This document shows positions 1,467-17,865 of a stretch of DNA of 64,000 nt, in pieces. The stretch lies in assembly GCA_963791045.1 (NCBI GenBank), contig CAWBQK010000006.1:256001-320000 (forward strand), read 5' to 3'. The position numbers were made by a program, and so were the translations under genes. This stretch comes from Candidatus Latescibacterota bacterium (GTDB lineage Bacteria > Krumholzibacteriota > Krumholzibacteriia > WVZY01). Each line of letters opens with the position of its first letter. Within the stretch, counting starts at the first letter, position 1. The notes below the pieces were generated by a model. That model did no database searches, was not told the DNA's origin, and saw only the letters and a program-made list of their open reading frames with translations.

Positions 1467-3875
1467 TTATTTGACGAGCACCATTTTTTGCGTGAGCAGC
1501 TGCTTGCCCGCATTCAAACGACAGAAATAAACACCCGATCCTACCGCTACGCCGAGGCCGTCGCGGCCGTCCCACGTAAACGACTTGAACCCGCCGTCCA
1601 TTTCACCATCGGCGATCTGACGGACGAGCTTGCCCTGCGCGTCGAAGACCGAGAGAGCGACGTGTCCGCGCTCGGGCAGAACGAACGAGATGGTCGTCGT
1701 CGGGTTGAAGGGGTTCGGGTAGTTCGGATTGAGAACCAGCGACATCGCGTTCACGGTGACCGAAACCGGCTGCGACATTACTTCCGACCCGTCATCGAGA
1801 ACGACGGAGAGCGTATAAAGATACTCGGCGCCGGGATCGACCGACGTGTCTTTGTATCCGGCCGCACTCAACGGAATGAGCGCCGAAGAATTGACGACGG
1901 TTCTGCCCGTGCCCGCGTCACGGTAAATTCGAATTCCGTCGACGGCGTCGTCCGAAGCAATGTCCCAGGTCAACTCGACGGCCCCGTCAGCGGCGCGGGC
2001 GTCGAACATCGTGATGAATGTTGGTGTCGGCGGCGGATAGAACTGGAGCATGGTGAAGCCCGCCTCTTCGTCCGCCACGTAAACGTGATCGGTCTCGGAC
2101 TGGATTCCCCATGCCTTTCCGCCCGTGTCGAAGAAGCCCACATAGAGCGGATTCGAAGGATCGGCGGCGTAATAGGCTTTGACGCCGTCCTCGGCCAGGG
2201 CGGCGAAAATATAGTTGCCGGTCACGGTGACGTCATACACATTGTCAGGGCCCGTGAACTCGCCGACAAAAGATTCGCCCCACGGATCGACAATCACGAG
2301 TCCTCCATATCCGTCCGCAATGGCGACATTCCCGTCGAGAAATTCCGCGTCCACAGACCATCCACTCGTGTCGTAAAACCACGTCTCGGTGGGGCTGGAT
2401 GGGGTCGATACATCAATCACACGGAGACCCGCATCGCCGTCGGCGACAAACACATAGTCCTCCGCAAACTCGACGCCACGCGCGTCGCCCGGCGTGTCGT
2501 AAAATCCAACTTCAACGGGCGCCGTAGGCGTCGATATGTCGATGACACGAAGGCCGGCCGAGCCGTCTGCGACAAACACGTAATCTCCCGATGCCGCGGC
2601 GTCGTATGCGGCGCCTGGCGTGTCGTATCTTCCGATCTCACTCGGCGTCGTTGGATCCGACGCATCGATGATCGCCAGGCCCTGATAGCGGTCCGAGACG
2701 AGTACAAAGTTTTCGCCCCACATCACCGCCTCGACATGGCCGATTGTGTCGTAAGTGCCGATCGATACGGGGTTGGCTGGGTCCTCGATGCTCAAGAACC
2801 GGATTCCGCCATTGTGCTGCGCGAGCACGGCGACTTCATCTTTGACGTCGACGTCATAGGTGAAGTCCACCGCGGGGATGCCTCCGAGCCAGGTTGGCAT
2901 TGTAGGCATCGTCAAAGTGAGCGCATAGACACCGTCTTTCCTCATCCCACAATAAAGCATGTCGGCTTCTTTGACGAGCGCGGCAGTGGCGAGTCCCGTT
3001 GTGAACTCACCGGCGTAGGTCGGGCTCGACGGCGTTGAAATGTCGACGACAATCATGCCGTCTCCCGGGGTCGCGAGATAAGCGTAATCGCCTTCGACCT
3101 GGACATCGTACGCAGTGATCGAGCCGGCGCCGTAGTTGCCCACTTCGGTTGGTTTCCCAATTGCAGGGATCTCGATGATGACGAGACCGTTACTGCCGTC
3201 TGCCACGAAAGCATGGATGCCCTGAACGTCAACGTCGTAAGCCACATTGCCGGTGTCATAGAAACCGATTTCCGTGGGAGTCGCCGGATTGGAGACATCA
3301 ATAATTCTAAGGCCGCTATAGCCATCCGCGACATAAGCAACGTCGCCCTCGACGTACACGCCGTTCGATGCGCTCGGTGTATTGTAGGAGCCCACTTCTT
3401 TGGGACTCGCGGGGTTTTTTAAATCGATAATACGAAGTCCGTCTTCGGCGTTGGCGATATAGGCATAGCCATCGTCGGAATAAACCCCGCGGGATTCCTT
3501 CGCCATGAAATATGAGCCAACGACACTTGGACTACCCGGGGCCGATACATCCACGACCACAAGTCCGTCATAAACGCATGCGACGCAGGCGTAGTCGCCC
3601 TCCACCGACACGCCCCTCACGGGTGACGAGAGGGTGATGTTGGCGAGTTCGCTCGGGGTCGACGGTTTGAAATAATTCTGGATGCTTAAACACGCGCCAT
3701 CGCCCGCAAACACAGTGGTGCCGACAGCGTCGACCGCGATACAGGGACCGTGGGCCCAGCGTCCCAATTCGCGCAAGTTCCAGTAGTCACCGGTTTCCGC
3801 CGCCGATGTGGTCGGCATGATCGTAAAAGCCGAAGCAACAATTAACAGAGAAACAATCCAGTAGCGCAGAGCCAT
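1467..3875 (-). CDS. Secreted LVIVD-repeat beta-propeller protein with C-terminal FlgD-Ig/T9SS-type sorting-like domain
   Basis: Signal peptide MALRYW...; many YVADGxxGLRIIDVSxP repeats; C-terminal NYPNPFNPTTTISF...SGVYFCRL...KMVLVK; purine-rich RBS before ATG 3875. Confidence 0.85.
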   Translation of the reverse strand: MALRYWIVSLLIVASAFTIMPTTSAAETGDYWNLRELGRWAHGPCIAVDAVGTTVFAGDGACLSIQNYFKPSTPSELANITLSSPVRGVSVEGDYACVACVYDGLVVVDVSAPGSPSVVGSYFMAKESRGVYSDDGYAYIANAEDGLRIIDLKNPASPKEVGSYNTPSASNGVYVEGDVAYVADGYSGLRIIDVSNPATPTEIGFYDTGNVAYDVDVQGIHAFVADGSNGLVIIEIPAIGKPTEVGNYGAGSITAYDVQVEGDYAYLATPGDGMIVVDISTPSSPTYAGEFTTGLATAALVKEADMLYCGMRKDGVYALTLTMPTMPTWLGGIPAVDFTYDVDVKDEVAVLAQHNGGIRFLSIEDPANPVSIGTYDTIGHVEAVMWGENFVLVSDRYQGLAIIDASDPTTPSEIGRYDTPGAAYDAAASGDYVFVADGSAGLRVIDISTPTAPVEVGFYDTPGDARGVEFAEDYVFVADGDAGLRVIDVSTPSSPTETWFYDTSGWSVDAEFLDGNVAIADGYGGLVIVDPWGESFVGEFTGPDNVYDVTVTGNYIFAALAEDGVKAYYAADPSNPLYVGFFDTGGKAWGIQSETDHVYVADEEAGFTMLQFYPPPTPTFITMFDARAADGAVELTWDIASDDAVDGIRIYRDAGTGRTVVNSSALIPLSAAGYKDTSVDPGAEYLYTLSVVLDDGSEVMSQPVSVTVNAMSLVLNPNYPNPFNPTTTISFVLPERGHVALSVFDAQGKLVRQIADGEMDGGFKSFTWDGRDGLGVAVGSGVYFCRLNAGKQLLTQKMVLVK

Positions 3876-4240
3876 GCTGCTCCCCCCTTGGGTTGTTGAT
3901 ACACAGCGAGGTATAAAGCCGGCGCGTAGCAAGGTGTGAACTGGTACAAGTGTGGGCTCAGCCATTCCGGGTCCGACCGCCGCTTCGGTTGGACACCGCT
4001 CCGCGATATGGCACTACAGCCGACGCCGTTTTGAAAGCAGTTGATCGATTGGAGATCGGGAAGAGCCTATCATATAACAAGTTGCAAGTCAACGTGCAGT
4101 TTGCCGCTCGCCGTCCAAATAAATCAAAAAAACACGTGACAAAATATGAATAGATGGTGTTTTGTTTTGTCTATGGTTGCAGCATCCGAGGCTCGGCACC
4201 TGGGATAGAACATAATCACTTGAAAAGAAGGTGGTATCAC

Positions 4241-5257
4241 ATGCGCAGAGCTTTTGCGTTCGCGCTGGTTTTTGTGGCGGTGGCCGTGCTTGTTGCGGGC
4301 CCCGTCCTCGCCGGTTGCGGCAAAGACTGCAAGTGTTGTAGTTGCAAGGTAAAGTGTGACAAGGAAATTACGGAATTTATCTATGACGTGACTTTCCCCT
4401 GGCCATTCCGCCAGAAGGTGAAGGATATGGACGGAGACGGCGTCCCCGACAAACTCGATAAATGTCCCGGAACGCCCCTGGGCGCCAAAGTGGACGAATA
4501 CGGTTGTCCGATGGACTCCGACGGTGACGGAATTTTTGACGGATTGGATAAATGCCCCGACACACCGAAGGGCGCCAAAGTAGACAAGTTCGGTTGTTCG
4601 ACGGACAGCGACGGCGACGGTGTGTCCGATGGCATAGACAAATGCCCGGATACGCCCAAAGGTGTTATGGTCGACACGGTTGGTTGCCCGATTGACAGTG
4701 ACGGCGACGGTGTATTCGATGGTTTGGACAAATGCCCCGACACGCCCAAGGGCGCCAAAGTCGATGGCTACGGTTGCCCGATTGACACCGACGGCGACGG
4801 CGTGCCCGACGGCATCGACCGCTGTCCGAATACGCCGAGTGGAATCACCGTCGACGCGTACGGATGCACCGCGGCGGAGACCCAGTTCCTCGACACCGGG
4901 TTGTTTACGACTTCCGACGTTAAGTTCGCTTCGAGCAAGGCCGACATCAACCCCGCGTCGTACCCGGTTCTTGACCGGATCGCCGAGGCGCTCGTGCAGT
5001 GGCCGCAGTTAAGGATCGAGATTGGCGGTCATACCGATTCCTCGGGTTCGGCTGAGTTTAACCAGAAGCTGTCCGAGCAGCGGGCGCAGGCCGTTCTCGA
5101 TTATATGGCGAAGAACTCGGACATCGAGAAGGGCCAGTTCACGTCGAAGGGTTATGGCGAGGCCGCGCCGATTGTGTCGAACGATACAACGGAAGGCCGT
5201 GCGAAGAACCGGCGTGTGGAATTCAAGATTCTCAACAAAGAGGTTTTGAAGAAGTAA
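4241..5257 (+). CDS. OmpA-C domain lipoprotein with thrombospondin type-3-like Ca-binding repeats
   Basis: Lipobox LAG-C; five DxDGDGVxDxxDKCP repeats; GHTDS...NQKLSEQRA...NRRVE peptidoglycan-binding motif. Confidence 0.88.
   Translation: MRRAFAFALVFVAVAVLVAGPVLAGCGKDCKCCSCKVKCDKEITEFIYDVTFPWPFRQKVKDMDGDGVPDKLDKCPGTPLGAKVDEYGCPMDSDGDGIFDGLDKCPDTPKGAKVDKFGCSTDSDGDGVSDGIDKCPDTPKGVMVDTVGCPIDSDGDGVFDGLDKCPDTPKGAKVDGYGCPIDTDGDGVPDGIDRCPNTPSGITVDAYGCTAAETQFLDTGLFTTSDVKFASSKADINPASYPVLDRIAEALVQWPQLRIEIGGHTDSSGSAEFNQKLSEQRAQAVLDYMAKNSDIEKGQFTSKGYGEAAPIVSNDTTEGRAKNRRVEFKILNKEVLKK
4424..4873 (+). repeat. Five intragenic 90-bp (30-aa) TSP3-like tandem repeats
   Basis: 30-aa periodicity DSDGDG..DKCPDTPKGAKVD..GC in the translation. 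Confidence 0.85.
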
Positions 5258-5374: not shown

Positions 5375-7282
5375 CTATTTCGCCGCCATTTGTTTCTCGA
5401 GGATTTCCATCGTCTGTTTGGGGTTGATGACGAGGATCGATTTTTCCTCGGTCCCACGGCTCTCAGAGCCCTTTTTCATCAACTCGATTACATCTGCCGG
5501 CGCGAGCGACGGGTTGCGGGCGATAAGTTTTGCCGCAAGATTTGTCACGTTGGGGGCGGCCATCGACGTTCCGGACATTTTGATCCGGTTGCCGCCGGGC
5601 ACGTAACTCTCCACCTCAAAACCGTTCGAGTACAGTGCGACAGTCTTCCCGGAACTGGTAAAACTCGTCGGATCACCCGCCTGGTCGACGGCTCCGGCTA
5701 TCACCAGGTTGGGAAGCTCGAATGCCGGGGGGACAAAAAGATCGAACTCTACGTCATTGTCGGAATTGCCCGCGCCGCCGACAAACAGAATATCCGGCGC
5801 GCTGGTAATCGCGGCCAGGAGGTCGTCCCTGCCGATCTCAAATAGCTCGCGGGCCAACTCTCCTCGCTCCTCCGCCGATTCTCCGATGCCGTTGGCCTCG
5901 AGGTTGTATTCGATTTCACGCAGACCCAGCACCCAGCTCATGTTGACCACACGAACACCGTTGGCTTTGTAATAATCGATCGCGCTCTGGAACGATTTGC
6001 CAAACGCCACCATGAGTTCTTTGGTGTACGGCCTGGGAATGATGTGATGGTCGAACGCGATCCGCGCGACGAGAATCCGCGCGTACGGATTGCCCTCCAC
6101 TGCGATGCCCGCCACGTGGGTTCCGTGTGAATAATTCGCATAGAGGGTGAGATCTTCCACAAACGCGGTAACATCATCGGGCTCGAGCGTGCCCATCGCC
6201 TCGCGCACTTCCAGAGCTTCGGGGCTTTCAACCGACGCGGTGATGTCGGTGAAGCCCTTGATTCTGTCCTCGAGCAGTTGACGATCTTTTTCGCGTTCGC
6301 CGAGCGCGTAAAGCAACTCGGGCGTCGGATTTGCGTCGAGGTCGAATGCGATGCCGTTGACATCGTCGACAAAACCGTTGCCGTCGGTGTCTTTGCCGTC
6401 TTTCTTTTCCTTCGGGTTGACGAAGAGCCGGCCCTCGAACACCTCGACATCCACGCCGGCGTCCCAGATCGCCACGACGACGTTTTTATAATCATCATTC
6501 TCCGGGAGCGCGATGTCACGTGCAGCCCAGATGTCTTCTTTGACCACCTTGTGCGCGGCGATTTGCTCGCCAATCACCAACTGGATCTCGTCCCTGTAGG
6601 GAAGTATGTGGTGCATCGCCGAGCGAAACATGATGATTTGCGACGCCTGATCACCGCTCATGTGCCCCGCCGCTTCGACCGCCGGGTCGATATGACCCTG
6701 GATCACGCCGATGAGCAGGTTCTCGGTGAGGATTTGCATCTGACCGTTCATCGCTTCGAACGTGTCCCGGACGTCATCCCAGGGCATCGCAGCGATACGC
6801 GCCCTCATGTTCTCGAGCATTACCTTCTTGAACGCGTCGCTTGAGGGATCATTCTCCACTTGCAGCGCGTCGATATATGAAAGCCCAACGAGCCCCATGG
6901 CGATTTTCTGTGCTTCCTTCTCTTCGAGTTCGCGGGACATTTCGAGATATTTTACAGAGTTCTCGTAATCACACTCGAGGAAGTAGAGGATTTGAAGTGT
7001 GTCATAGTATCGCTGGAGCGCCGTAGTATCCTCGATGTCGCACGTCTCCAGGTCGACGAGCGCGTTGTGTTTAACCTGTTCGGCGAGTTGTTTGAACTCC
7101 TCTTCAGATGTGACAATCTCCGATGGCTTCGCCGTTACCTCATAGGTGTGACGGGGAAGATCGTCAATCGTTGCCACCTTGGTTTTTTCCCCCGCGGTTG
7201 CCGTCGACAACGGCACAAAAACCAAACAGAACACAACGAAAAGGAAGAAACACGGAACGATCGGTCGGCGGTAGGATAGCAT
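5375..7282 (-). CDS. Secreted S8 (subtilisin-like) serine peptidase
   Basis: Signal peptide; triad motifs VAIWDAGVD, HGTHVAGI, GTSMAAP; oxyanion AGN. Confidence 0.9.
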   Translation of the reverse strand: MLSYRRPIVPCFFLFVVFCLVFVPLSTATAGEKTKVATIDDLPRHTYEVTAKPSEIVTSEEEFKQLAEQVKHNALVDLETCDIEDTTALQRYYDTLQILYFLECDYENSVKYLEMSRELEEKEAQKIAMGLVGLSYIDALQVENDPSSDAFKKVMLENMRARIAAMPWDDVRDTFEAMNGQMQILTENLLIGVIQGHIDPAVEAAGHMSGDQASQIIMFRSAMHHILPYRDEIQLVIGEQIAAHKVVKEDIWAARDIALPENDDYKNVVVAIWDAGVDVEVFEGRLFVNPKEKKDGKDTDGNGFVDDVNGIAFDLDANPTPELLYALGEREKDRQLLEDRIKGFTDITASVESPEALEVREAMGTLEPDDVTAFVEDLTLYANYSHGTHVAGIAVEGNPYARILVARIAFDHHIIPRPYTKELMVAFGKSFQSAIDYYKANGVRVVNMSWVLGLREIEYNLEANGIGESAEERGELARELFEIGRDDLLAAITSAPDILFVGGAGNSDNDVEFDLFVPPAFELPNLVIAGAVDQAGDPTSFTSSGKTVALYSNGFEVESYVPGGNRIKMSGTSMAAPNVTNLAAKLIARNPSLAPADVIELMKKGSESRGTEEKSILVINPKQTMEILEKQMAAK

Positions 7283-7303: not shown

Positions 7304-9718
7304 CTATCGCAGCGGTGAATATTCGATGTTAATTTCATTCAAAAGTTCTTTAAAGCGGGGATTGTCCGCGATGGGCGCGAACGAACAATCCCGGTTCAGC
7401 GAAGACGTCTGATTCGCCTTCTGGTCGATCGCTCGTTCGAGCCATACGACCGCCGAATCGGCCTCACCGATCAACGCAAAAGAGCCGGCGATACCTATCG
7501 GTGACCCGTGCTTTTCGCTGTAGGCTTTTTTTAGCTGATCCAGCAGCAAGCGCTGGTACGCTTCGAAACCACCGGTTTCGAGCGCCTCGGCCAGCGCGCG
7601 AACATCATCTCTCTGCTCGGTGGTGGCCGCGACGAGTTCTCCATAACGGATGCCGCTTCTCGCTGCCTCTTCCAACTGTCCCGTACACAAGAGGGCAAAT
7701 TGCTTGGTGTAGTGCAGCGGCGGAAAGAGCGGCGACTCCGCGGCGACTTCGTCGAATTCGGCGAACCCGGCATCGATCTCGCCGTTGCGTACCAGGATCA
7801 AGCCTGCGACGACTCGGATGATGGGCGACAGCGGGTCGAGCTCCATCGCGATTCGGATTCGTGCGACGGCCTCGTCGAGGCGGCCAGTCGAAGACAGGAA
7901 CTCCGAGTACCACTGGTGCGCCGTCGCATAGTTCGGGCTGAGTTCGATCGCCCGCAAGAAATGCCGCTCCGCCGCATCCCAATCAAAATCGTATTCGTTG
8001 GCCACCGCGCCGAGCACCGCGTGAGCGGGCGCCAGTTTTTCGTCCAGTTCGATGGCCTTCTCGGCCATCTCCCGGGCTTTGGGATAATACCCCTCCACCC
8101 CGATATTTGTTCCCCACGTATTCAACACGGTGAACGTTTCGGCCAGCCCCGCGTAAGCCAGCGCGTAGCCGGGATCGATTTCGATGGCTTTCTCGAAAAG
8201 GTCGACCGCTTTGTACAGCGACTCCTCGGTACGTTTGTTCCAATTGAAACGCCCCTGCAAATAGAGCTCGTATGCCTCCCTGTCAACGACGGGGGAATCG
8301 GAGAGGCGCGTTTCATCATACTCTGTGAGTTCGACTTCGATCTGAGTGGCGACATCCATCGCGACACGGCGCTGAAGACCGAGCACATCAACCACTTCGC
8401 TCTGGTAGCTGTTGGCCCAAATATGCTCATCCGTCTTGCCATCGACCAGCTGGACCGTAATCCGAACCTGGTCGCCGGCCCACAAAACGGCCCCTTCGAT
8501 CACCTTCGCCACGCCGAGTTCATCGGCGATGGCCGTCATCGTCTTGTCCGAGTCTTTGTAGCGCATCACGGATGTTCGTGAAATCACCTTGAGCGCCTTT
8601 ATCTGCGCGAGCTGAGTGATGAGTTCCTCGGTCATGCCGTCGACAAAAAACTCGTTCCCCGGATCCTTTGAAAGATTTGTGAGGGGGAGCACCGCGATAG
8701 AGTTGTCGCGGGCCTCGGCAAGGGTTTTCGGCGTCGTCCGGTTCGTCGCCGGGTTGGGGCCGTTTTTTTGGGTCGTTTTTGGCCACAGCCAGACAATGAT
8801 TGCCGCGATAATGATGACAAGCGCAATTCCGACGCCGCGGCCGATTCTGTTGCGCCGTGGCTCGGTTACATCGATCGTGACGCTCGTCGGTGTCTCACTC
8901 GCGCCCTGGACCCCCAGGAAAACCTCGAGATCGGCCTGGAACGCGTCGACGTTCTGATAGCGGTCTTCGCGGTTCTTGGCGAGAGCCTTGTTTACGGCCC
9001 GTTCGAGTTTTTCGGGTACGTTCGGGTGTGCTTTAGATATGGGTTCGGGGTCTTCGTTGATGATCGAATAGATAACGGCCGCTTCGTGCTCGGCGACGAA
9101 AGGCGGACGGCCTGTGAGCATCTGATAGAGCACTACCCCGAGTGACCAGACATCGGAGCGTTGATCTGCTTTCTCCCCGCGAATCTGCTCGGGCGACATG
9201 TACGTCGCTGTTCCCACGGTCTTGCCCACTCTTGAAATCTTGGATTGGCTTCGAAGTTTGGCCAGCCCGAAATCAAGAAGCACCGGGCGGCCCTTTTCCG
9301 ACATCATGATGTTTGCCGGCTTGATGTCGCGATGGATGATGTCTTGCGAATGGGCTTCTTTGACGGCGCCGCAAAGCTCCATGGCTATGGCGGCGGCTCT
9401 GTTGGGTTCGAGCGGCTTGCCATCGAGGTGCTTTTCAAGATCGACGCCGGGGATGTACTCCATCGATATGAATGTCTGATCGTCCGCCGAATTAATCTCG
9501 TAAATCGTGCAGATATTGGGATGGTTTAGCGCGGCGGCCGTCTGCGCTTCATTGATAAACCGTTCCTTCTCGTCGTCCGACGCGAGAAGCTGCAGCGGGA
9601 GGAATTTGAGCGCGACGGTGCGCTTGAGCTTGGTGTCTTCGGCTTTGAAGACAATGCCCATTCCGCCTTCGCCGAGCTGCTCGACGATTTTGTAATGAGA
9701 TACGGTTCTTCCAATCAT
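7304..9718 (-). CDS. Hanks-type Ser/Thr kinase with TM helix, TolB-N-like domain and TPRs
   Basis: GEGGMG, VALK, HRDIKPAN, DFGLAK, YMSPE; TM GVGIALVIIIAAIIVWLW; SIAVLPLTNLS; TPR repeats. Confidence 0.92.
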   Translation of the reverse strand: MIGRTVSHYKIVEQLGEGGMGIVFKAEDTKLKRTVALKFLPLQLLASDDEKERFINEAQTAAALNHPNICTIYEINSADDQTFISMEYIPGVDLEKHLDGKPLEPNRAAAIAMELCGAVKEAHSQDIIHRDIKPANIMMSEKGRPVLLDFGLAKLRSQSKISRVGKTVGTATYMSPEQIRGEKADQRSDVWSLGVVLYQMLTGRPPFVAEHEAAVIYSIINEDPEPISKAHPNVPEKLERAVNKALAKNREDRYQNVDAFQADLEVFLGVQGASETPTSVTIDVTEPRRNRIGRGVGIALVIIIAAIIVWLWPKTTQKNGPNPATNRTTPKTLAEARDNSIAVLPLTNLSKDPGNEFFVDGMTEELITQLAQIKALKVISRTSVMRYKDSDKTMTAIADELGVAKVIEGAVLWAGDQVRITVQLVDGKTDEHIWANSYQSEVVDVLGLQRRVAMDVATQIEVELTEYDETRLSDSPVVDREAYELYLQGRFNWNKRTEESLYKAVDLFEKAIEIDPGYALAYAGLAETFTVLNTWGTNIGVEGYYPKAREMAEKAIELDEKLAPAHAVLGAVANEYDFDWDAAERHFLRAIELSPNYATAHQWYSEFLSSTGRLDEAVARIRIAMELDPLSPIIRVVAGLILVRNGEIDAGFAEFDEVAAESPLFPPLHYTKQFALLCTGQLEEAARSGIRYGELVAATTEQRDDVRALAEALETGGFEAYQRLLLDQLKKAYSEKHGSPIGIAGSFALIGEADSAVVWLERAIDQKANQTSSLNRDCSFAPIADNPRFKELLNEINIEYSPLR

Positions 9719-9779
9719 TGTATCAAGATAGGCTGTGGGGCAATGGTTTGACAATACAAGAATTACGAAGCGCGGCGGG

Positions 9780-10772
9780 CTAGAGTTTCGACAGGTCAGG
9801 GCTTTTTTCCTGGAGGAGTTTCAACCAGGCCTGGAGCCCTTCCTTTTCGGCGTAACGCTTAACGCGGCGAAAGCCCTCCCCGTAGATCGGGTCGGGGTCC
9901 TTGAGCATGTTGTCGATAACGAAGTCCGCATTTTCGCCGCCCAGTGTGCGAAGAACGAGATACGCGGCGAAATTGCAGCTGCCCTCCGAAACCGCAGGGT
10001 CCTGGTCGAGCCGGCCGTTCTGGAACTGCCAGACGTGGGCGAGCTCGTGGGCGGCGGTGCTCGTCATCTGAGTCCGCGGCATTCCGTTTAGCAGATACAC
10101 TTTGATCGATTCGCTTTTCACCTGTCCGAAAATGTTCTTTTTGACCAGATAGTCGCTGAATCCCTTGGTGTCGTGCGAACTCGACGAGGCGACACGTTTG
10201 AGTTCATCTGTGCCCACGAGTAGGATTTCGACCTGCGAGATATCGACCTCCATCCCGTTCGAAGCGAGGACTTCCGCGACTTTGGCGAGGATGAGACGAA
10301 CCTTTCCGGTCGAGGTAATCGAAGATGGTGCGCATTTACCACACAAACGGCGGTCGTCGGGAAGTCTGACCATCCCATCGAGAAGCTCTCCGTATATGAA
10401 TCTCTGGCAGAAATCACACTGAGACACGACCCCCTTGTGCGACTTGTGGTACGCATCGCCCCAGTAATCGATGAGATAATCGCCCTGGATGATCCCGCCG
10501 CACACAACGCATCTGAGCGCCACATGGTCCTCAAAACACTGCTTGTGATAATTCTCGTTTTTGTAAACGAGGAAAGCATCCTTTATCGGTTCACCGCAGT
10601 GCGCGCAGGTGAAGCAATTCGGATGATAGAAGTGACTGCCCGTCTCGAAATATGAACCGGAAATTTCTCCGCCGCATTCGTGGCAGATTTTCTGGTCGTT
10701 CGCGCTCGTACCGTGCGAACCGAGCGCCAACAATGACAAGCACGCGAGCGAAATCAGTATGATGTGTTTCAT
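9780..10772 (-). CDS. LIM + LIM-like zinc finger, DA1-like zinc metallopeptidase with signal peptide
   Basis: C-x2-C-x16-H-x2-C-x2-C-x2-C-x16-H-x2-C LIM pattern; further CxxC pairs; AHELAH, EGSCN, YGEGFR; N-terminal hydrophobic leader MKHIILISLACLSLLAL. Confidence 0.8.
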   Translation of the reverse strand: MKHIILISLACLSLLALGSHGTSANDQKICHECGGEISGSYFETGSHFYHPNCFTCAHCGEPIKDAFLVYKNENYHKQCFEDHVALRCVVCGGIIQGDYLIDYWGDAYHKSHKGVVSQCDFCQRFIYGELLDGMVRLPDDRRLCGKCAPSSITSTGKVRLILAKVAEVLASNGMEVDISQVEILLVGTDELKRVASSSSHDTKGFSDYLVKKNIFGQVKSESIKVYLLNGMPRTQMTSTAAHELAHVWQFQNGRLDQDPAVSEGSCNFAAYLVLRTLGGENADFVIDNMLKDPDPIYGEGFRRVKRYAEKEGLQAWLKLLQEKSPDLSKL

Positions 10773-11157
10773 GTCGTCATTTTCGTGGTGAATGATCTGG
10801 TGATGTCGAATCCGACTCAAACATAATATCCGAGCAAAAACCAGTCCACTGTGGTGATTTCAAACCGTTTGGAGGTCCGCCGTCGTCGCGACCATGGGGA
10901 GCCCTCTTGAAAGTATGGGAAATCTCGGCATAACTGCCGAATTTCACCCATTTTAGCCCGGTTTGGAAACCCGGACGGCCGGCAATCGTACATAGTGGAG
11001 ACCGCCACGAGGCCGCGTCAGGGGGCATACGCTAATCGGATCCGCATCACCTTGTTTGACGCGCGTGCGAATTCCCTGATAGACTTGCCTCGAACACAGC
11101 TGCGCCAAACCGCCAAACACACATTGAATATTTTTCACAGGAACGAGTAGAGAAGAC

Positions 11158-14136
11158 ATGATCGGCAAAAAAGTCCTCCACTACAAAATCACCGAAAAGC
11201 TCGGTCAGGGCGGCATGGGCGCCGTCTATATGGCCGAGGACACCAAATTGAAGCGTACGGTGGCGCTCAAGTTCCTGCCGCCCCAGGCTCTCGCCGACGA
11301 GACCGACAAGGCGCGGTTTGTTCACGAAGCTCAGGCCGCCGCCGCGCTCCACCATCCGAATATTTGCACCGTTTTCGAAATCAACGAAGCCGACGAGCAG
11401 GTCTTCATCTCCATGGCGTATCTCCCGGGCGACAGCCTCAAAGAGAAGATTGAGGCGGGCCCCATCAAGGACGTGGATGTTCTCAAGATTGCCACGCAAA
11501 TTGCCCGTGGTCTCGGAGCCGCCCATGTTAAACAGATCGTTCATCGGGATATCAAACCCACCAATATTATGTTCTCCGAGAGCGGCGCCGCGACCGTGCT
11601 GGACTTTGGCCTGGCCAAATCCAAACACCAGACCCATGTCACTAAAATGGGCACCACGATGGGGACGATCGCCTATATGTCGCCCGAACAATCGCGCGGC
11701 GTGGACGTCGACCATCGGACGGACATCTGGTCGCTTGGCGTAATGATGTACGAGATGGTTACGGGACAAAGACCATTTATTGGTGACTACGACGAGGCTG
11801 TGATCTATTCGATTTTGAACGAGCCGGCCAAACCTATTGAGGAGCTGGGGAAGGACGTCAATCCGGATCTCATCTACATCATCAATAAAGCGATGGCGAA
11901 GAGCCCCGACGACAGGTATCAATCCGCGGAAGAGATGCTCGCCGACATGAACCCGTTGCTCGATGCATTAAGAACAGGTTCGAGCAGTTCGTTTTCCACG
12001 CGGTCACGCATCGGTATCACCGGGACGCACGCGGCGGCGAGCGGACTGTTCCGTCCGAAGGTGTTGTTTCCCGTGGCGGCAGTGGTCCTTGTGGTCGCCG
12101 TTGCGTTGATTCTAATGGTGACCGGCGACAAGGGTGGAGTGACCGAGACAGTTGCCGTTGTTGACGAGGAAGGTCAGACGATTGAACGCGTCGTTCCGAA
12201 GAGCGAGTTTCGAAAGAATTTCGCCTTGTATCCGTTCGAAAACAAGACAGGCGACGCAGCCAACGACTGGGTGGAGGCGGCGAGTGTTGTTCTGCTGGAG
12301 ATAGACCTGCTTCAGGATCAGATCCTGAACGTCCGAAGTGCAAACGATCAGTTCGCCATGCGAAAACTTCAGAGGGCGGGATTTAGAAAATGGTCGGAGG
12401 CCCCCTGGAATCTCAAACGCAGGATCGCCAAGGAATCTCAGTATGATTTCATCGTGACGGGGACGTTTACAATTGAAAACGGCGATTATGTCTTCAGCCG
12501 CTCGCTTCACAACACGGCCACAGGCAGGATGGTCACCCAGAAGGAGTACCGCGGCAAGGACGTGTTCGCGATCATCGATGACATATCGGTTGATCTGAAA
12601 ACCGACCTGGAGGTGCCGGAAGCATATCTCGAAAACCTCAAGGATCTTCCCGTCGCGGAGATGATGACGACATCCGACGAAGCCCTCAAGGATTTTGGGA
12701 TTGGAGTCCAGGCGTTGACGGTTGATCAGGATTGGACGACAGCCGTTGAATCCCTTCTGAAGGCTGTCGAAGTGGATTCGACCTTCGCGTTTGCCCATTG
12801 GCAGCTCCTGATCATGGGGCTCAACACCAACCAGAGCCAGATTATGGCAACGTCGTCCCAGAAGGTTATACAGTATGTTTACAAGCTGCCCGAGCGAGTT
12901 CAATTTATCGTCAAATCGGTGTATTACCAGCTCAAAAAAGATACGAACAAGCAGGTGGCCGTTCTCAAGATGATGAACGAGCTTTACCCCGAAGACACTA
13001 TCGGTTTGAGCATGCTCGCCCAGCAGTACGCCACGGAAAAAAGAACCGACGAAGCCATCGCCGTGTACGAGAGAATCCTCGAAATCGATCCGAGCCGGTC
13101 CGAGACACTGCGGACGATCGGACAGTTGTACCGGAACGAGGGTGAATTCGACAGAGCGCTCGAGTATTTCAATCAGTACGCGAGCCTTTATCCAAACCAG
13201 GTCAATTCGTTTACGCCGATTGCAGTCATATACAGAGACATGGGTGAGTATGACAAGTCGACGGAATATTACGACAAAGCGCTTCTCATCGAGCCCGGTA
13301 ACGTCTCGGTAATCTGCCAGCTTGGACAGATCGACGCCCGCCTCGGCAATTACGAGCAGGCTCTCACAAAGTATAACGAGGCGTTGGGCCTGGCCAAGGC
13401 GCCCAGGGACCGGCTGGAAATCTATTCCTCCCTTGCTACGTTCTATCGCGATCGTGGCGAGATGCAAAAGTCTTTTGAGTACATGATACTCGAGTGGGCG
13501 GAAGAGGGAGTTGTCACGTCACCGGTTCAATCGCTTCTCTCGGAGCTCATGGAAGCCCACTATTATGTCAAGGCTGGGGAGCGCGACAAGGCTTTTGAGA
13601 TTGTCGAATCGGTCGGCGCAAAGATCCAAGCGCCGTATGATGAAGCGGTTCCCCTGGGTTACGTGTATCTCTATCTCGAGGTCGAGGAGCCGGACAGCGC
13701 CGAGGTGGCGGCCGAGCGGTTGATGGCGTTTATCGAGGGATACAAGCTCGAAACTCTCCGCGGCCGCGTGTTCGATATACAGGGCCGAGTCGCTGAGCTT
13801 CGGGGTCGGTACGAGGAGGCGATCGGTCACTTCGAGAAAAGACTCGAGCATTCACCGCGGGCCGTCGATGCTTACTGGCGAATTGGACGGTGTTATCACA
13901 AACTCGGTGATCTCGATAGCGCCGAATTGAACCTGCAAAAAAATCTCAAGATATTTCCGGTGGATCCGGAATGCCTCTTTGATCTCGCCCTCGTTCAGGC
14001 GGACAAAGGCGAGCGCGAGAACGCGCGTGCAACTCTCGACAAAGTCCTCGAAATCTGGGCAAACGCCGACCCCGAGTTCGAGCCTGCCAGAAAAGCCCGC
14101 GAAAAGCTTGTCGAATGGCAGAGCTGGGAATCCTGA
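11158..14136 (+). CDS. Hanks-type Ser/Thr kinase with TM helix and long TPR array
   Basis: GQGGMG, VALK, HRDIKPTN, DFGLAK, YMSPE; TM VAAVVLVVAVALILMV; multiple TPRs. Confidence 0.92.
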   Translation: MIGKKVLHYKITEKLGQGGMGAVYMAEDTKLKRTVALKFLPPQALADETDKARFVHEAQAAAALHHPNICTVFEINEADEQVFISMAYLPGDSLKEKIEAGPIKDVDVLKIATQIARGLGAAHVKQIVHRDIKPTNIMFSESGAATVLDFGLAKSKHQTHVTKMGTTMGTIAYMSPEQSRGVDVDHRTDIWSLGVMMYEMVTGQRPFIGDYDEAVIYSILNEPAKPIEELGKDVNPDLIYIINKAMAKSPDDRYQSAEEMLADMNPLLDALRTGSSSSFSTRSRIGITGTHAAASGLFRPKVLFPVAAVVLVVAVALILMVTGDKGGVTETVAVVDEEGQTIERVVPKSEFRKNFALYPFENKTGDAANDWVEAASVVLLEIDLLQDQILNVRSANDQFAMRKLQRAGFRKWSEAPWNLKRRIAKESQYDFIVTGTFTIENGDYVFSRSLHNTATGRMVTQKEYRGKDVFAIIDDISVDLKTDLEVPEAYLENLKDLPVAEMMTTSDEALKDFGIGVQALTVDQDWTTAVESLLKAVEVDSTFAFAHWQLLIMGLNTNQSQIMATSSQKVIQYVYKLPERVQFIVKSVYYQLKKDTNKQVAVLKMMNELYPEDTIGLSMLAQQYATEKRTDEAIAVYERILEIDPSRSETLRTIGQLYRNEGEFDRALEYFNQYASLYPNQVNSFTPIAVIYRDMGEYDKSTEYYDKALLIEPGNVSVICQLGQIDARLGNYEQALTKYNEALGLAKAPRDRLEIYSSLATFYRDRGEMQKSFEYMILEWAEEGVVTSPVQSLLSELMEAHYYVKAGERDKAFEIVESVGAKIQAPYDEAVPLGYVYLYLEVEEPDSAEVAAERLMAFIEGYKLETLRGRVFDIQGRVAELRGRYEEAIGHFEKRLEHSPRAVDAYWRIGRCYHKLGDLDSAELNLQKNLKIFPVDPECLFDLALVQADKGERENARATLDKVLEIWANADPEFEPARKAREKLVEWQSWES

Positions 14137-16835: not shown

Positions 16836-17291
16836 ATGAAAACCAATCACGTCATAGAATCATATCAGTCCTGGGATGACGATCGTGTCACAGCGGAGGA
16901 GCGGCGGACGATTCAGCAGCATCTCGAAGAATGTCCCAAGTGCCGGCGTTACTACGAGAACATGTCAAGCTTGCTGGAGCAACCGGATCCGTCGCTTCTC
17001 CCGCGTCTCGAACCGGATCCTTTTCTTCCCACCAGGATTCGAGCGGAGGCCGAGGCGAAGAGCCGGCGCCCCGCGCTGCGAAGAGCGTCGAGTTGGGCCC
17101 GGTTGTCGGCTGCGGGAGTGATGGTGGTCGTAGCAGCCACGTTTGGAGTCTACCTTGGCAATGGGTTGTCGACAGCCACCCAATCCGACGACAATACCGA
17201 GATGATCAATGCTTACTACGAGGCGTTTTCGCCGACGAGCATCGTGGATGACTGGGCGAGTCTTCTGGAAAACGGCGAGGACGAGGGATGA
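16836..17291 (+). CDS. zf-HC2 (ZAS) transmembrane anti-sigma factor
   Basis: HLEECPKC (HxxxCxxC), single TM helix, in the ECF sigma cluster. Confidence 0.8.
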   Translation: MKTNHVIESYQSWDDDRVTAEERRTIQQHLEECPKCRRYYENMSSLLEQPDPSLLPRLEPDPFLPTRIRAEAEAKSRRPALRRASSWARLSAAGVMVVVAATFGVYLGNGLSTATQSDDNTEMINAYYEAFSPTSIVDDWASLLENGEDEG

Positions 17292-17328
17292 TCCCGCGTC
17301 GCGCTGAGAACCTGCAAAGGGAAATCAC

Positions 17329-17865
17329 ATGAAGATCAAGTTTCTTGTCGGTGCCCTCGTTTTGCTCATCATCGTCAATATCGCGGTGATCGGGACGTTT
17401 GTCATGATGCGCGCACGCAGACTTCCGATGCCCGAAAGAACGGGAATAAGGGCCGTGGCGCCCGACGGAGAATTGCGATCGCGGAGGTCTCGAATCCCAA
17501 GAGAACACAGGGAAGAACTGATGGTTCAGCTCCACGACCTGCAAGAGGAAACGGAACCGTACAGGGAGCGGATCGCGACTCTCGAGGGTCAGGTGTTCGA
17601 AGCCCTCCAGGCGGAGCCGGTATCCGAGGCGGTTGTCGATTCGCTGCTCGGTGAGATTTCACATGTGAAATTCGAGATGAGCAAGGTGGCGACCAGAAAA
17701 CTCATCGAAGCAAAGGAATTCCTGCCTCCCGAGCAGCAGGAGAGGTTTTTCCGCGCGATGATGAGTGCTCGCAAGGGACGCGAGGGAATGATGGGATCTC
17801 GCGGAGACGGCCGGTCCGGCGGGAGACGCGGACGACGGATGAACCCCGACTCGCTGTCTCGTTAG
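17329..17865 (+). CDS. Periplasmic heavy-metal-sensor/Spy-like protein
   Basis: N-terminal anchor LIIVNIAVIGTF, helical body, LPPEQQERF motif. Confidence 0.7.
   Translation: MKIKFLVGALVLLIIVNIAVIGTFVMMRARRLPMPERTGIRAVAPDGELRSRRSRIPREHREELMVQLHDLQEETEPYRERIATLEGQVFEALQAEPVSEAVVDSLLGEISHVKFEMSKVATRKLIEAKEFLPPEQQERFFRAMMSARKGREGMMGSRGDGRSGGRRGRRMNPDSLSR

What the first reader, a model, noticed from the sequence alone, without database searches (positions are those of the whole stretch)
9780..10772. Bacterial exported LIM-domain / plant DA1-type zinc peptidase
Seen: a complete LIM spacing (CHEC-x16-HPNC-FT-CAHC-x16-HKQC), then a LIM-like module (CVVC...YHKSH...CDFC...LCGKC), then a peptidase domain (AHELAH, EGSCN, YGEGFR). 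Known: LIM + LIM-like + HExxH (HEMMH) is the architecture of Arabidopsis DA1/DAR ubiquitin-activated peptidases, and LIM domains are generally regarded as eukaryotic. Here a Sec-type leader sits where DA1 has its UIMs. Inference: a prokaryotic DA1 relative with a non-ubiquitin activation mechanism, either ancestral or transferred. Multiple Cys/His zinc fingers in an exported protein are unusual.
Basis: partly seen in the sequence, partly recalled or inferred. Interest (0 to 1): 0.8.

Follow-up and report, generated by a model that had tools for sequence, protein, structure and literature searches.

The report
Exported bacterial LIM DA1-type zinc peptidase
This is a real bacterial gene for a zinc protease that carries two LIM-type zinc-finger modules and a secretion leader. 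It is related end to end to the plant growth regulator DA1, but it belongs to a large bacterial family that is already catalogued and has never been studied at the bench.

Summary
Window 9780..10772 (minus strand) encodes a 330-aa protein with four parts: an N-terminal Sec-type leader, a canonical LIM domain, a second LIM-like module, and an HExxH...E peptidase. Pfam LIM scores 38.5 bits and DA1-like 40.7 bits, both above their cut-offs. The protein aligns collinearly with the LIM-peptidase module of a plant DAR4 (hhalign probability 99.5%).

All 16 zinc-ligand positions and the four catalytic residues are invariant as Cys/His or His/Glu in 115 of 115 full-length homologues. Cys and His swap at two ligand positions, which fits metal binding rather than disulfides. 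The leader is conserved in 113 of 115.

The predicted peptidase domain has a gluzincin (thermolysin/M1-like) fold. The gene is near-universal in one order of its phylum (33 of 35 genomes) and absent from the other 172. It also occurs in Zixibacteria, Ignavibacteriota, Cloacimonadota, Spirochaetes and Chloroflexota.

The novelty claim does not hold. The family has at least 500 clusters at 50% identity, NCBI already names members 'protein DA1', and the literature noted prokaryotic LIM-peptidases in 2011 and 2017. This scan has found the family four times before on other DNA.

The substrate and the activation mechanism are unknown. The only unusual feature is that the zinc fingers sit outside the cytoplasm.

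The parts
9780..10772 (-). Complete CDS, 330 aa plus stop: leader, LIM, LIM-like module and DA1-like peptidase
   Evidence: ORF list and translation. Pfam LIM and DA1-like both score above their cut-offs. It is the only copy in the 3.66-Mb, 81%-complete assembly.
10701..10772 (-). Sec-type signal peptide, about residues 1-24 (MKH, then hydrophobic core IILISLACLSLLAL, then GSHGTSA). The cleavage site is inferred, not predicted by a dedicated program
   Evidence: A hydrophobic leader precedes the first ligand Cys in 113 of 115 full-length homologues. K/R lies before it in 103 of 115, and a small-x-small motif in 112 of 115. Cys11 is not conserved (10 of 115), so there is no lipobox. P0001 has no RR. 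AF2 models residues 2-16 as a helix and 19-24 at pLDDT below 50.
10527..10685 (-). Canonical LIM domain, residues 30-82. Ligands C30 C33 H50 C53 / C56 C59 H76 C79
   Evidence: Pfam PF00412 covers residues 30-82 at 38.5 bits. The family profile hits PINCH and paxillin LIM chains at E 1.8e-9. All ligand columns are Cys/His in 115 of 115, and position 53 is C in 79 and H in 36.
10332..10511 (-). LIM-like second double zinc finger, residues 88-147. Ligands C88 C91 H109 H112 / C119 C122 C144 C147. The spacer between its two fingers is 6 residues instead of 2
   Evidence: All ligand columns are Cys/His in 115 of 115, and position 109 is H in 94 and C in 21. The model of residues 26-149 superposes on tandem LIM structures: Foldseek 7d2t_D E 3.8e-6, VIA 2xqn_T Z 10.0 with 104 residues aligned. 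It aligns to the LIM-like module of plant DAR4.
9783..10316 (-). DA1-like (MEROPS M102-type) gluzincin peptidase domain, residues 153-330
   Evidence: Pfam PF12315 matches in two stretches. VIA-align gives 1z1w_A (M1 family) Z 11.6, rmsd 2.9, 153 residues aligned; thermolysin gives Z 9.0. It aligns with the plant DAR4 peptidase.
10035..10049 (-). HELAH zinc-binding and catalytic motif (H242, E243, H246)
   Evidence: Read directly from the DNA. Invariant in 115 of 115 homologues. Aligns to HEMMH of plant DAR4.
9984..9986 (-). E263, the inferred third zinc ligand, in the SEGSCN motif
   Evidence: Invariant in 115 of 115. Aligns to the second E of the plant 'EEG' motif. The bioRxiv paper 2022.06.21.497003 names that motif as part of the DAR4 active site (passage).

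Best explanation
The gene encodes a zinc metallopeptidase of the DA1 (MEROPS M102-type) family. The protein is made with a Sec signal peptide and works outside the cytoplasm, either soluble in the periplasm or tethered to the membrane.

The mature protein has two tandem LIM-type double zinc fingers, inferred to bind four structural zinc ions. These are followed by a gluzincin catalytic domain in which H242, H246 and E263 hold the catalytic zinc and E243 is the general base.

By analogy with eukaryotic LIM domains, which bind extended peptides, and with plant DA1, where the LIM-like module is needed for activity, the zinc fingers most likely recruit or position protein substrates, or gate the active site. 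The enzyme would then carry out limited cleavage of envelope or periplasmic proteins. It has no ubiquitin-binding motifs, so any activation must work some other way.

Shown here: the gene, its domain architecture, homology to plant DA1-family proteins, strict conservation of ligands and catalytic residues, the conserved leader, and lineage-wide vertical retention.

Inferred: export, zinc occupancy, endopeptidase activity, and the role of the LIM modules. The substrate is unknown.
For: Architecture and family:
- Pfam LIM scores 38.5 bits and DA1-like 40.7 bits, both above cut-off. All 34 of 34 homologues match both.
- The protein aligns collinearly with Camelina DAR4 residues 1258-1600 (BLASTP E 2e-18). 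The family profile aligns with probability 99.5% and E 4e-22 over 283 columns.
- A prokaryote-only profile retrieved that plant protein at E 9.8e-37 from 5.8 billion sequences.

Selection:
- The 16 ligand positions are Cys/His in 115 of 115 full-length homologues. C and H interchange at positions 53 (79/36) and 109 (21/94).
- H242, E243, H246 and E263 are invariant in 115 of 115.

Fold:
- The AF2 model has pLDDT 87.9.
- Residues 26-149 match tandem LIM structures.
- Residues 153-330 match gluzincin catalytic domains: M1 at Z 11.6, M3 at 11.1, M30 at 10.2, thermolysin at 9.0.

Export:
- The leader is conserved in 113 of 115 homologues.
- It is also present in Zixibacteria, Ignavibacteriota and Cloacimonadota members.
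- The phylum lacks DsbB (0 of 208 genomes) and almost lacks VKOR (4 of 208), so no known oxidase would be expected to oxidise exported thiolates.

Retention:
- The gene is present in 11 of 12 and 22 of 23 genomes of the two families of its order, mostly as one match per genome.
Against: - No dedicated signal-peptide predictor was available. The export call rests on my own hydrophobicity and motif rules.
- Twelve cysteine thiolates holding zinc outside the cytoplasm is unusual. One carrier genome, G204, does have a VKOR homologue.
- The absence of Dsb oxidases is phylum-wide, so it does not track the gene specifically.
- The Pfam DA1-like match is partial: two stretches covering profile positions 78-131 and 172-210 of 213.
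- The gluzincin structural matches (Z 9-11.6) are generic, and the model is only a prediction.
- No gene neighbour is conserved beyond close kin, so context says nothing about the substrate.
- No activity, zinc content or localisation has been measured for any bacterial member, as far as my searches show.
Confidence: 0.8

Rival explanations
1. The leader is an uncleaved signal anchor. The enzyme is then a membrane-tethered protease whose LIM and peptidase domains face the periplasm.
For: The uncharged N-terminal run has a median of 21 residues in homologues, long enough to span a membrane. As I recall it, the abstract of Burroughs et al. 2011 speaks of prokaryotic LIM domains as partners of 'membrane-associated peptidases'. 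That paper was not held.
Against: A small-x-small motif lies within 14 residues of the first Cys in 112 of 115 homologues, and 26 of 115 have Gln just after it. From recall, that pattern is typical of cleaved signal peptides in the FCB group. AF2 gives residues 19-24 pLDDT below 50, like a flexible linker.
Confidence: 0.15
2. The cysteines form disulfide bonds in an exported cysteine-rich domain that only resembles LIM, and no structural zinc is bound.
For: The protein appears to be exported, and exported cysteine-rich domains are usually disulfide-bonded (general knowledge).
Against: Four ligand positions are invariant His. Two positions swap Cys and His freely (79/36 and 21/94 among 115), which a disulfide cannot tolerate. 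DsbB is in 0 of 208 and VKOR in 4 of 208 genomes of the phylum. Leaderless relatives keep the same ligand pattern.
Confidence: 0.04
3. The gene is a recent transfer from plants or another eukaryote into this bacterium.
For: The architecture is best known from land plants, and the Pfam models for it are dominated by eukaryotic sequences.
Against: Identity to plant DAR4 is only 22%. The gene is near-universal in one bacterial order, in 33 of 35 genomes. Relatives are spread over many phyla, with 500 representatives at E<=1e-30. In both trees the plant sequence sits beside leaderless bacterial forms (Anaerolineaceae, Magnetococcus), not beside this clade.
Confidence: 0.01
4. The protein is a catalytically dead binding protein or decoy, like the integrated LIM-peptidase domain of plant DAR4, and not an active protease.
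For: No activity has been shown for any bacterial member. Plant DAR4 uses the same module as an integrated sensor domain (abstract in the listing and passages, bioRxiv 2022.06.21.497003).
Against: H242, E243, H246 and E263 are invariant in 115 of 115 homologues. That is expected only if catalysis is under selection.
Confidence: 0.05

Closest known systems
Plant DA1 / DAR family (MEROPS M102, Pfam PF12315 plus PF00412); here compared with Camelina sativa DAR4 (P0278)
   Same: Both have the same three-module order: LIM, LIM-like, then HExxH...E peptidase. They are collinear over about 280 residues. Every zinc ligand is in register, as are HELAH/HEMMH, SEGSCN/EEGLCQ and YGEGFRRV/YGDGFKKV.
   Different: This protein has no UIMs and no ubiquitin system to activate it. 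It has a Sec leader instead of the cytosolic N-terminal region. It is 330 aa, shorter than the plant proteins, and only 22% identical. It lacks the long insert that plant DAR4 carries between the Glu-ligand helix and the YGDGF motif.
Leaderless bacterial LIM-DA1 proteins, such as the Anaerolineaceae and Magnetococcus 'protein DA1' entries and the Roseiflexus homologues cited by Dong et al. 2017 after Burroughs et al. 2011
   Same: They belong to the same family and share the same catalytic and ligand motifs. These are the prokaryotic LIM-peptidases already noted in print (passages).
   Different: They start directly at the first CxxC with no leader, and often have three LIM modules. They score far higher on the Pfam models (P0272: LIM 105.7 bits, DA1-like 93 bits). 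They lie nearer the plant sequence in my trees.
Gluzincin peptidases of clan MA(E): M1 aminopeptidases, thermolysin (M4), M3 and M30
   Same: The predicted catalytic domain has the same layout: a beta-sheet subdomain, the HExxH helix, and a Glu-bearing helix. VIA-align gives Z 9.0-11.6 with 150-183 residues aligned.
   Different: No sequence-level relationship was detected. The domain is much smaller than these enzymes and is fused to zinc fingers.
Eukaryotic LIM-domain adaptor proteins (PINCH, paxillin, LMO, FHL, Zasp)
   Same: They share the C2HC-C2HC binuclear zinc-finger pattern and predicted fold. The family profile hits animal Zasp proteins at about E 1e-13.
   Different: Those are cytosolic or nuclear scaffolds with no enzyme domain. 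Here the LIM domains are fused to a protease and appear to be exported.

Membership tests
DA1-like peptidase (Pfam PF12315 / MEROPS M102) | Match to the family profile above the curated cut-off | tested here: met
   The score is 40.7 bits against a cut-off of 25, in two stretches. All 34 of 34 homologues match. The MEROPS number M102 for DA1 peptidase comes from a passage in PMC8643629.
DA1-like peptidase (Pfam PF12315 / MEROPS M102) | HExxH motif plus a downstream Glu ligand (the 'EE(G)' motif in plants) | tested here: met
   H242-E-L-A-H246 and E263 are invariant in 115 of 115. They align to HEMMH and EEG of DAR4. The plant motif is described in passages of bioRxiv 2022.06.21.497003.
DA1-like peptidase (Pfam PF12315 / MEROPS M102) | LIM and LIM-like modules directly N-terminal to the peptidase, collinear with a plant member | tested here: met
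   BLASTP of residues 29-306 against DAR4 1258-1600 gives E 2e-18. hhalign gives probability 99.5% over 283 columns.
DA1-like peptidase (Pfam PF12315 / MEROPS M102) | Zinc-dependent endopeptidase activity | not testable with these tools
   This needs an enzyme assay with an E243A control.
Ubiquitin-activated DA1/DAR1/DAR2 subgroup of plants | N-terminal ubiquitin-interaction motifs and activation by ubiquitylation | tested here: not met
   The Pfam scan lists no UIM family at E up to 1. The only sequence before the LIM domain is the 29-residue leader region.
LIM domain (Pfam PF00412) | Profile match above cut-off with the C2HC-C2HC eight-ligand spacing | tested here: met
   The score is 38.5 bits against a cut-off of 22.9, over residues 30-82. 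Ligand columns are 100% Cys/His in 115 of 115.
LIM domain (Pfam PF00412) | Binuclear treble-clef LIM fold | tested here: met
   This rests on a predicted model only. Foldseek gives 7d2t_D E 3.8e-6 over 134 columns. VIA gives 2xqn_T Z 10.0 and 2d8z Z 8.6.
LIM domain (Pfam PF00412) | Two zinc ions bound per domain | not testable with these tools
   This needs metal analysis. The Cys/His swaps at ligand positions are indirect support.
Sec (signal peptidase I) secretory proteins | Tripartite leader: basic n-region, hydrophobic h-region, small-x-small c-region | tested here: met
   This rests on my own rules, not a trained predictor. Of 115 homologues, 113 have the hydrophobic core, 103 have K/R before it, and 112 have the small-x-small motif. 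Sequences were also inspected by eye.
Sec (signal peptidase I) secretory proteins | Actual export and cleavage | not testable with these tools
   This needs reporter fusions or N-terminal sequencing.
Gluzincins, clan MA(E) | Thermolysin-like catalytic fold with a Glu as the third ligand | tested here: met
   This rests on a predicted model. 1z1w_A gives Z 11.6, rmsd 2.9 and 153 residues aligned. Thermolysin 5a3y_A gives Z 9.0.

The most novel reading that the evidence does not exclude
In this exported clade the two LIM-type modules work as zinc-thiolate switches outside the cytoplasm. Loss of zinc or oxidation of the thiolates (oxygen exposure, metal stress) would unfold the LIM-like module and so switch the attached peptidase on or off. 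In these largely Dsb-less bacteria, that would take the place of the ubiquitin-dependent activation seen in plant DA1. It would make this a stress-gated envelope protease built on a domain otherwise known only from the cytosol and nucleus.
Probability: 0.1. Interest if true: 0.65.

Novelty: new member of a known kind. Interest (0 to 1): 0.3.

Why it matters
DA1 peptidases control organ and seed size in crops, yet their catalytic mechanism, structure and evolutionary origin are poorly understood. No solved structure matched the peptidase domain by sequence.

Compact bacterial homologues of about 300 residues, with the same LIM, LIM-like and peptidase core and no ubiquitin dependence, could be tractable models for structure and mechanism. 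A homologue lies on a metagenome-assembled contig labelled Melioribacter roseus. From recall, that species is cultured, which would allow genetics.

The exported subgroup raises a small but real question: how do Cys-rich zinc fingers stay metallated outside the cytoplasm? None of this makes the present gene surprising. It is a typical member of a large family that is already catalogued.

Tried and rejected
Literature
- Burroughs, Iyer & Aravind 2011 (PMC5938088), the key paper on prokaryotic LIM domains, is not held. What I say of its content is recalled from its abstract, or taken from how Dong et al. 2017 and a reviewer comment in PMC4506424 cite it. I could not check whether it already notes the signal peptide.
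- These searches gave no paper that characterises a bacterial member:
  - 'prokaryotic LIM': 1 irrelevant paper.
  - 'DA1-like' + LIM + prokaryotes: 0 papers.
  - 'membrane-associated peptidases' + LIM: 9 irrelevant papers.
  - DA1 + LIM + Roseiflexus: 4 held, 3 listed, only Dong et al. relevant.
  - 'LIM-peptidase': 7 plant papers.
- PMC7159879 has no mention of LIM or DA1.

Family and structure searches
- NCBIfam gave nothing near its cut-offs.
- PDB sequence searches, with the single protein and with the profile, found only LIM chains and none for the peptidase domain.
- A 'longer' search with alignment A1 found no fused bacterial forms and no plant proteins. It returned 5 animal Zasp LIM proteins and one 613-aa metagenomic protein. 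The tool warns that this is weak evidence.

Genomic context
- No neighbour family is conserved across the 29 loci plus the window.
- The flanking Ser/Thr kinase genes recur only beside the closest relatives (L005, L008, L016, L017). I therefore rejected a functional kinase-protease pair.
- The promoter and terminator scan was uninformative: 3 sites of each kind, against 1.0 and 2.1 expected.

Export route
- Lipoprotein reading rejected: Cys11 is present in only 10 of 115 homologues.
- Tat export rejected for this protein: it has no RR. RR occurs in 10 of 115 homologues.

Disulfide-oxidase idea
- I tested whether carriers specifically lack disulfide oxidases. DsbB and VKOR are each absent from the 21 other carrier genomes, and from the window's genome and 5 good relatives.
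- They are just as absent from non-carriers of the phylum: DsbB 0 of 208, VKOR 4 of 208. One carrier, G204, has VKOR.
- So the absence is a permissive background, not a correlate.
- In the window's genome alone, Pfam DSBA and Thioredoxin_4 also gave no match. Thioredoxin_4 matched 1 of 5 relatives. That assembly is 81% complete.

Expression
- No RNA holder is listed.

Other
- The Heimdallarchaeote homologue matches no Pfam family at E<=0.001.
- It has no supported position in either tree.
Full report
**The gene**

Window 9780..10772 on the minus strand is an open frame of 330 codons, starting MKHIILISLACLSLLALGSHGTSANDQKICHEC. The frame stays open upstream to a TTG at 10820. Homologues, including one that is 92% identical, begin at the position of the ATG at 10772, so I take that as the start.

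The gene sits between two genes for Ser/Thr kinases with TPR repeats. One is at 7304..9754 on the same strand, 25 bases downstream. The other is at 11158..14136 and is divergent.

**Observation check**

- A LIM pattern: C30-x2-C33-x16-H50-x2-C53-x2-C56-x2-C59-x16-H76-x2-C79.
- A second eight-ligand module: C88, C91, H109, H112, C119, C122, C144, C147.
- HELAH at 242-246, SEGSCN with E263, and YGEGFR at 297-302.

Pfam gives LIM at 38.5 bits (cut-off 22.9, residues 30-82) and DA1-like at 40.7 bits (cut-off 25, two stretches). It also gives a marginal DUF6782 metallopeptidase match. All 34 of 34 aligned homologues match both LIM and DA1-like. NCBIfam has nothing near its cut-offs.

**Homology to plant DA1 proteins**

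A profile built only from prokaryotic members retrieved Camelina sativa 'protein DA1-related 4' at E 9.8e-37. The window's protein aligns with the C-terminal LIM-peptidase module of that protein from residue 29 to 306. BLASTP gives E 2e-18 and 22% identity. The family profile aligns over 283 columns with probability 99.5%.

The eight LIM ligands, the eight LIM-like ligands, HELAH/HEMMH, SEGSCN/EEGLCQ and YGEGFRRV/YGDGFKKV are all in register. The plant motifs AHEMMHA and EE are described as the DAR4 active site in bioRxiv 2022.06.21.497003 (passages). PMC8643629 gives the MEROPS family of DA1 as M102 (passage). The whole three-module core is therefore homologous, not just a motif resemblance.

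**Conservation**

115 of the 121 proteins are at least 300 aa long; the six shorter ones were dropped as truncated. Among these 115, all 16 ligand columns are Cys or His in 115 of 115.
- Position 53 is Cys in 79 and His in 36.
- Position 109 is His in 94 and Cys in 21.
- H242, E243, H246 and E263 are each invariant in 115 of 115.

Free Cys/His exchange at ligand positions fits metal binding and does not fit disulfides. The invariant catalytic set argues for an active enzyme.

**Predicted structure**

AlphaFold2 with the 34-sequence alignment gives mean pLDDT 87.9 and pTM 0.76. Residues 2-16 form a helix and residues 19-24 fall below pLDDT 50.

Foldseek against the PDB ranks tandem LIM structures first. 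PINCH1 LIM4-5 (7d2t_D) gives E 3.8e-6 over 134 columns, followed by Lhx3, Isl1 and LMO chains. Both zinc modules are therefore modelled as LIM domains.

A Foldseek-independent search aligns residues 153-330 to gluzincin catalytic domains:
- Tricorn-interacting factor F3, family M1: Z 11.6, rmsd 2.9, 153 residues aligned.
- Puromycin-sensitive aminopeptidase: Z 11.1.
- Oligoendopeptidase F: Z 11.1.
- Lugdulysin, family M30: Z 10.2.
- Thermolysin: Z 9.0.

These matches are generic fold matches on a predicted model. No solved structure matches the peptidase domain by sequence.

**The leader**

By my own simple rules, 113 of 115 full-length homologues have a strongly hydrophobic ten-residue window in the 40 residues before the first ligand Cys. 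Of the 115, 103 have Lys/Arg before it and 112 have a small-x-small motif within 14 residues of that Cys. Ten have RR. The median length before the first Cys is 29 residues (sequences inspected).

Cys11 of this protein is not conserved (10 of 115), so a lipobox is unlikely. The protein has no RR, so Tat export is unlikely. No trained predictor was available, and cleavage versus anchoring cannot be decided here.

The leader is also present in members from Zixibacteria, Ignavibacteriota (Melioribacter), Cloacimonadota and GN15. Three Spirochaetales members (239-286 aa) lack it; two of these have only the LIM-like module and one has one more CxxC pair. A Heimdallarchaeote member also lacks it.

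Among 149 representatives of the wider family, 110 have a hydrophobic N-terminus by a cruder rule. Many of the other 39 begin directly at the first CxxC. On my 45-row tree the leader state changes at least 5 times. That count rests on those crude labels, and some leaderless rows may be truncated gene calls.

**Distribution**

The gene matches once in the window's assembly, which is 3.66 Mb in 21 contigs and 81% complete.

In 208 genomes of the phylum, the family profile matches 34, counting the window's own. Leaving the window's genome out, it matches 11 of 12 and 22 of 23 genomes in the two families of the window's order, and 0 of 172 in the seven other families. That looks like vertical retention as a core gene of one order.

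Across one genome per species of bacteria and archaea, 36 loci were confirmed.

In a library of 1.84 billion representatives at 50% identity, 500 match at E<=1e-30, 3054 at E<=1e-10 and 7909 at E<=1e-3. The weaker tiers surely include LIM-only proteins.

**Is it already known?**

Database names already include 'protein DA1' and 'LIM domain-containing protein' for Latescibacterota, Krumholzibacteria, Anaerolineaceae and Magnetococcus entries.

Dong et al. 2017 (PMC5322733) state that the DA1 LIM-like region is highly similar to predicted proteins of Roseiflexus, and cite Burroughs et al. [quoted passage not shown] I could not read the 2011 paper. From recall, its abstract reports prokaryotic radiations of LIM domains as partners of membrane-associated peptidases.

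This scan has reported the same family four times before on other DNA, and those follow-ups reached the same verdict. I checked the lead to MEROPS M102 in one of those notes.

**Relation to plants**

I had only one plant sequence.
- In a FastTree of 97 rows it falls in a 13-row set (local support 99) that is otherwise made of bacterial forms, 11 of the 12 leaderless.
- In an IQ-TREE mixture-model tree of 45 rows it is sister to those same 12 rows, with SH-aLRT 85 and no star.

Two of those rows are named Anaerolineaceae and Magnetococcus. An Anaerolineaceae member scores 105.7 bits on LIM and 93 bits on DA1-like, far above the window's protein.

The window's protein lies in a starred (99) ten-row clade of leader-bearing Latescibacterota-type proteins. 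The plant branch is very long (3.1 changes per column), and the trees are unrooted. I therefore claim only that this exported clade is not the closest bacterial relative of plant DA1. I make no claim about donor or direction.

**Context and function**

No neighbour is conserved beyond close kin, so the gene seems to act alone and context gives no substrate.

Nearby genes suggest an envelope theme, but this is not evidence of linkage:
- An LVIVD-repeat protein with a type IX secretion tail.
- An OmpA/TSP3 protein.
- A subtilase.
- An anti-sigma zf-HC2 protein.
- A Metal_resist protein.

I asked whether exported zinc fingers go with a lack of disulfide oxidases. DsbB and VKOR are absent from the window's genome and from five good relatives. 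They are also absent from 21 other carrier genomes. However, the whole phylum lacks them: DsbB in 0 of 208 and VKOR in 4 of 208. One carrier, G204, has VKOR. The absence is thus permissive background, not a specific correlate.

**Verdict**

It is an exported, or at least leader-bearing, member of the bacterial LIM-DA1 peptidase family.

My best reading, at confidence 0.8, is a zinc-dependent gluzincin endopeptidase that acts on envelope or periplasmic proteins. Its LIM modules would bind substrates or gate the active site without ubiquitin.

What remains mildly unusual is that LIM zinc fingers appear to work outside the cytoplasm. The boldest reading the evidence allows is that they act as a zinc or redox switch for the protease, with probability about 0.1.

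Noticed in passing
L044:7611-8855 (+), contig labelled Candidatus Heimdallarchaeota: This is a leaderless 414-aa homologue (P0122) with 16 CxxC/CxxH motifs, followed by HELAH, REGFCEW and YGLGF. It matches the window's protein at about 27% identity over residues 30-319. It matches no Pfam family at E<=0.001 and sits on a very long, unsupported branch. An Asgard LIM-like peptidase could bear on the origin of the eukaryotic module, but MAG contamination was not excluded.
   Followed up: partly
window 7304..9754 (-) and 11158..14136 (+): Two large Ser/Thr protein kinases with C-terminal TPR arrays flank the gene. A kinase lies next to the LIM-peptidase only in the closest relatives (L005, L008, L016, L017), not in the sister family of the order.
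   Followed up: yes
whole phylum of G000 (208 genomes): DsbB is found in 0 of 208 genomes and VKOR in 4 of 208. The phylum seems to lack the usual periplasmic disulfide-oxidation machinery. Many of these assemblies are incomplete.
   Followed up: partly
L029:7974-8834, L034:64-789, L035:7983-8702 (Spirochaetales MAGs): These are short leaderless forms of 239-286 aa. L034 and L035 start right at the LIM-like module and lack the first LIM domain. L029 keeps one more CxxC pair. The motif is HELMH, and L035 matches DA1-like at 53.4 bits.
   Followed up: partly
L043:8049-8826 (Melioribacteraceae MAG): Here the homologue is split into two overlapping ORFs of 156 and 108 aa. This may be a frameshift, a pseudogene or an assembly error.
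   Followed up: no
window 9783..9800 (C-terminus of the protein) and homologues: The last residues are conserved in type. Most homologues end in ...P-x-G-Y and the window's subclade ends in ...L-S/T-K/R-L/F, so the terminal residue is hydrophobic or aromatic. The meaning is unknown. It might be a tail that docks in the enzyme's own cleft or in a partner.
   Followed up: no
window 1467..3965 (-), 4154..5257 (+), 5375..7282 (-), 16836..17865 (+): The neighbourhood is rich in envelope proteins: an LVIVD-repeat protein with a type IX secretion C-terminal domain, an OmpA/thrombospondin-repeat protein, a subtilase, a zf-HC2 anti-sigma factor and a Metal_resist (periplasmic stress) protein. None is conserved next to the gene in other lineages.
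   Followed up: partly
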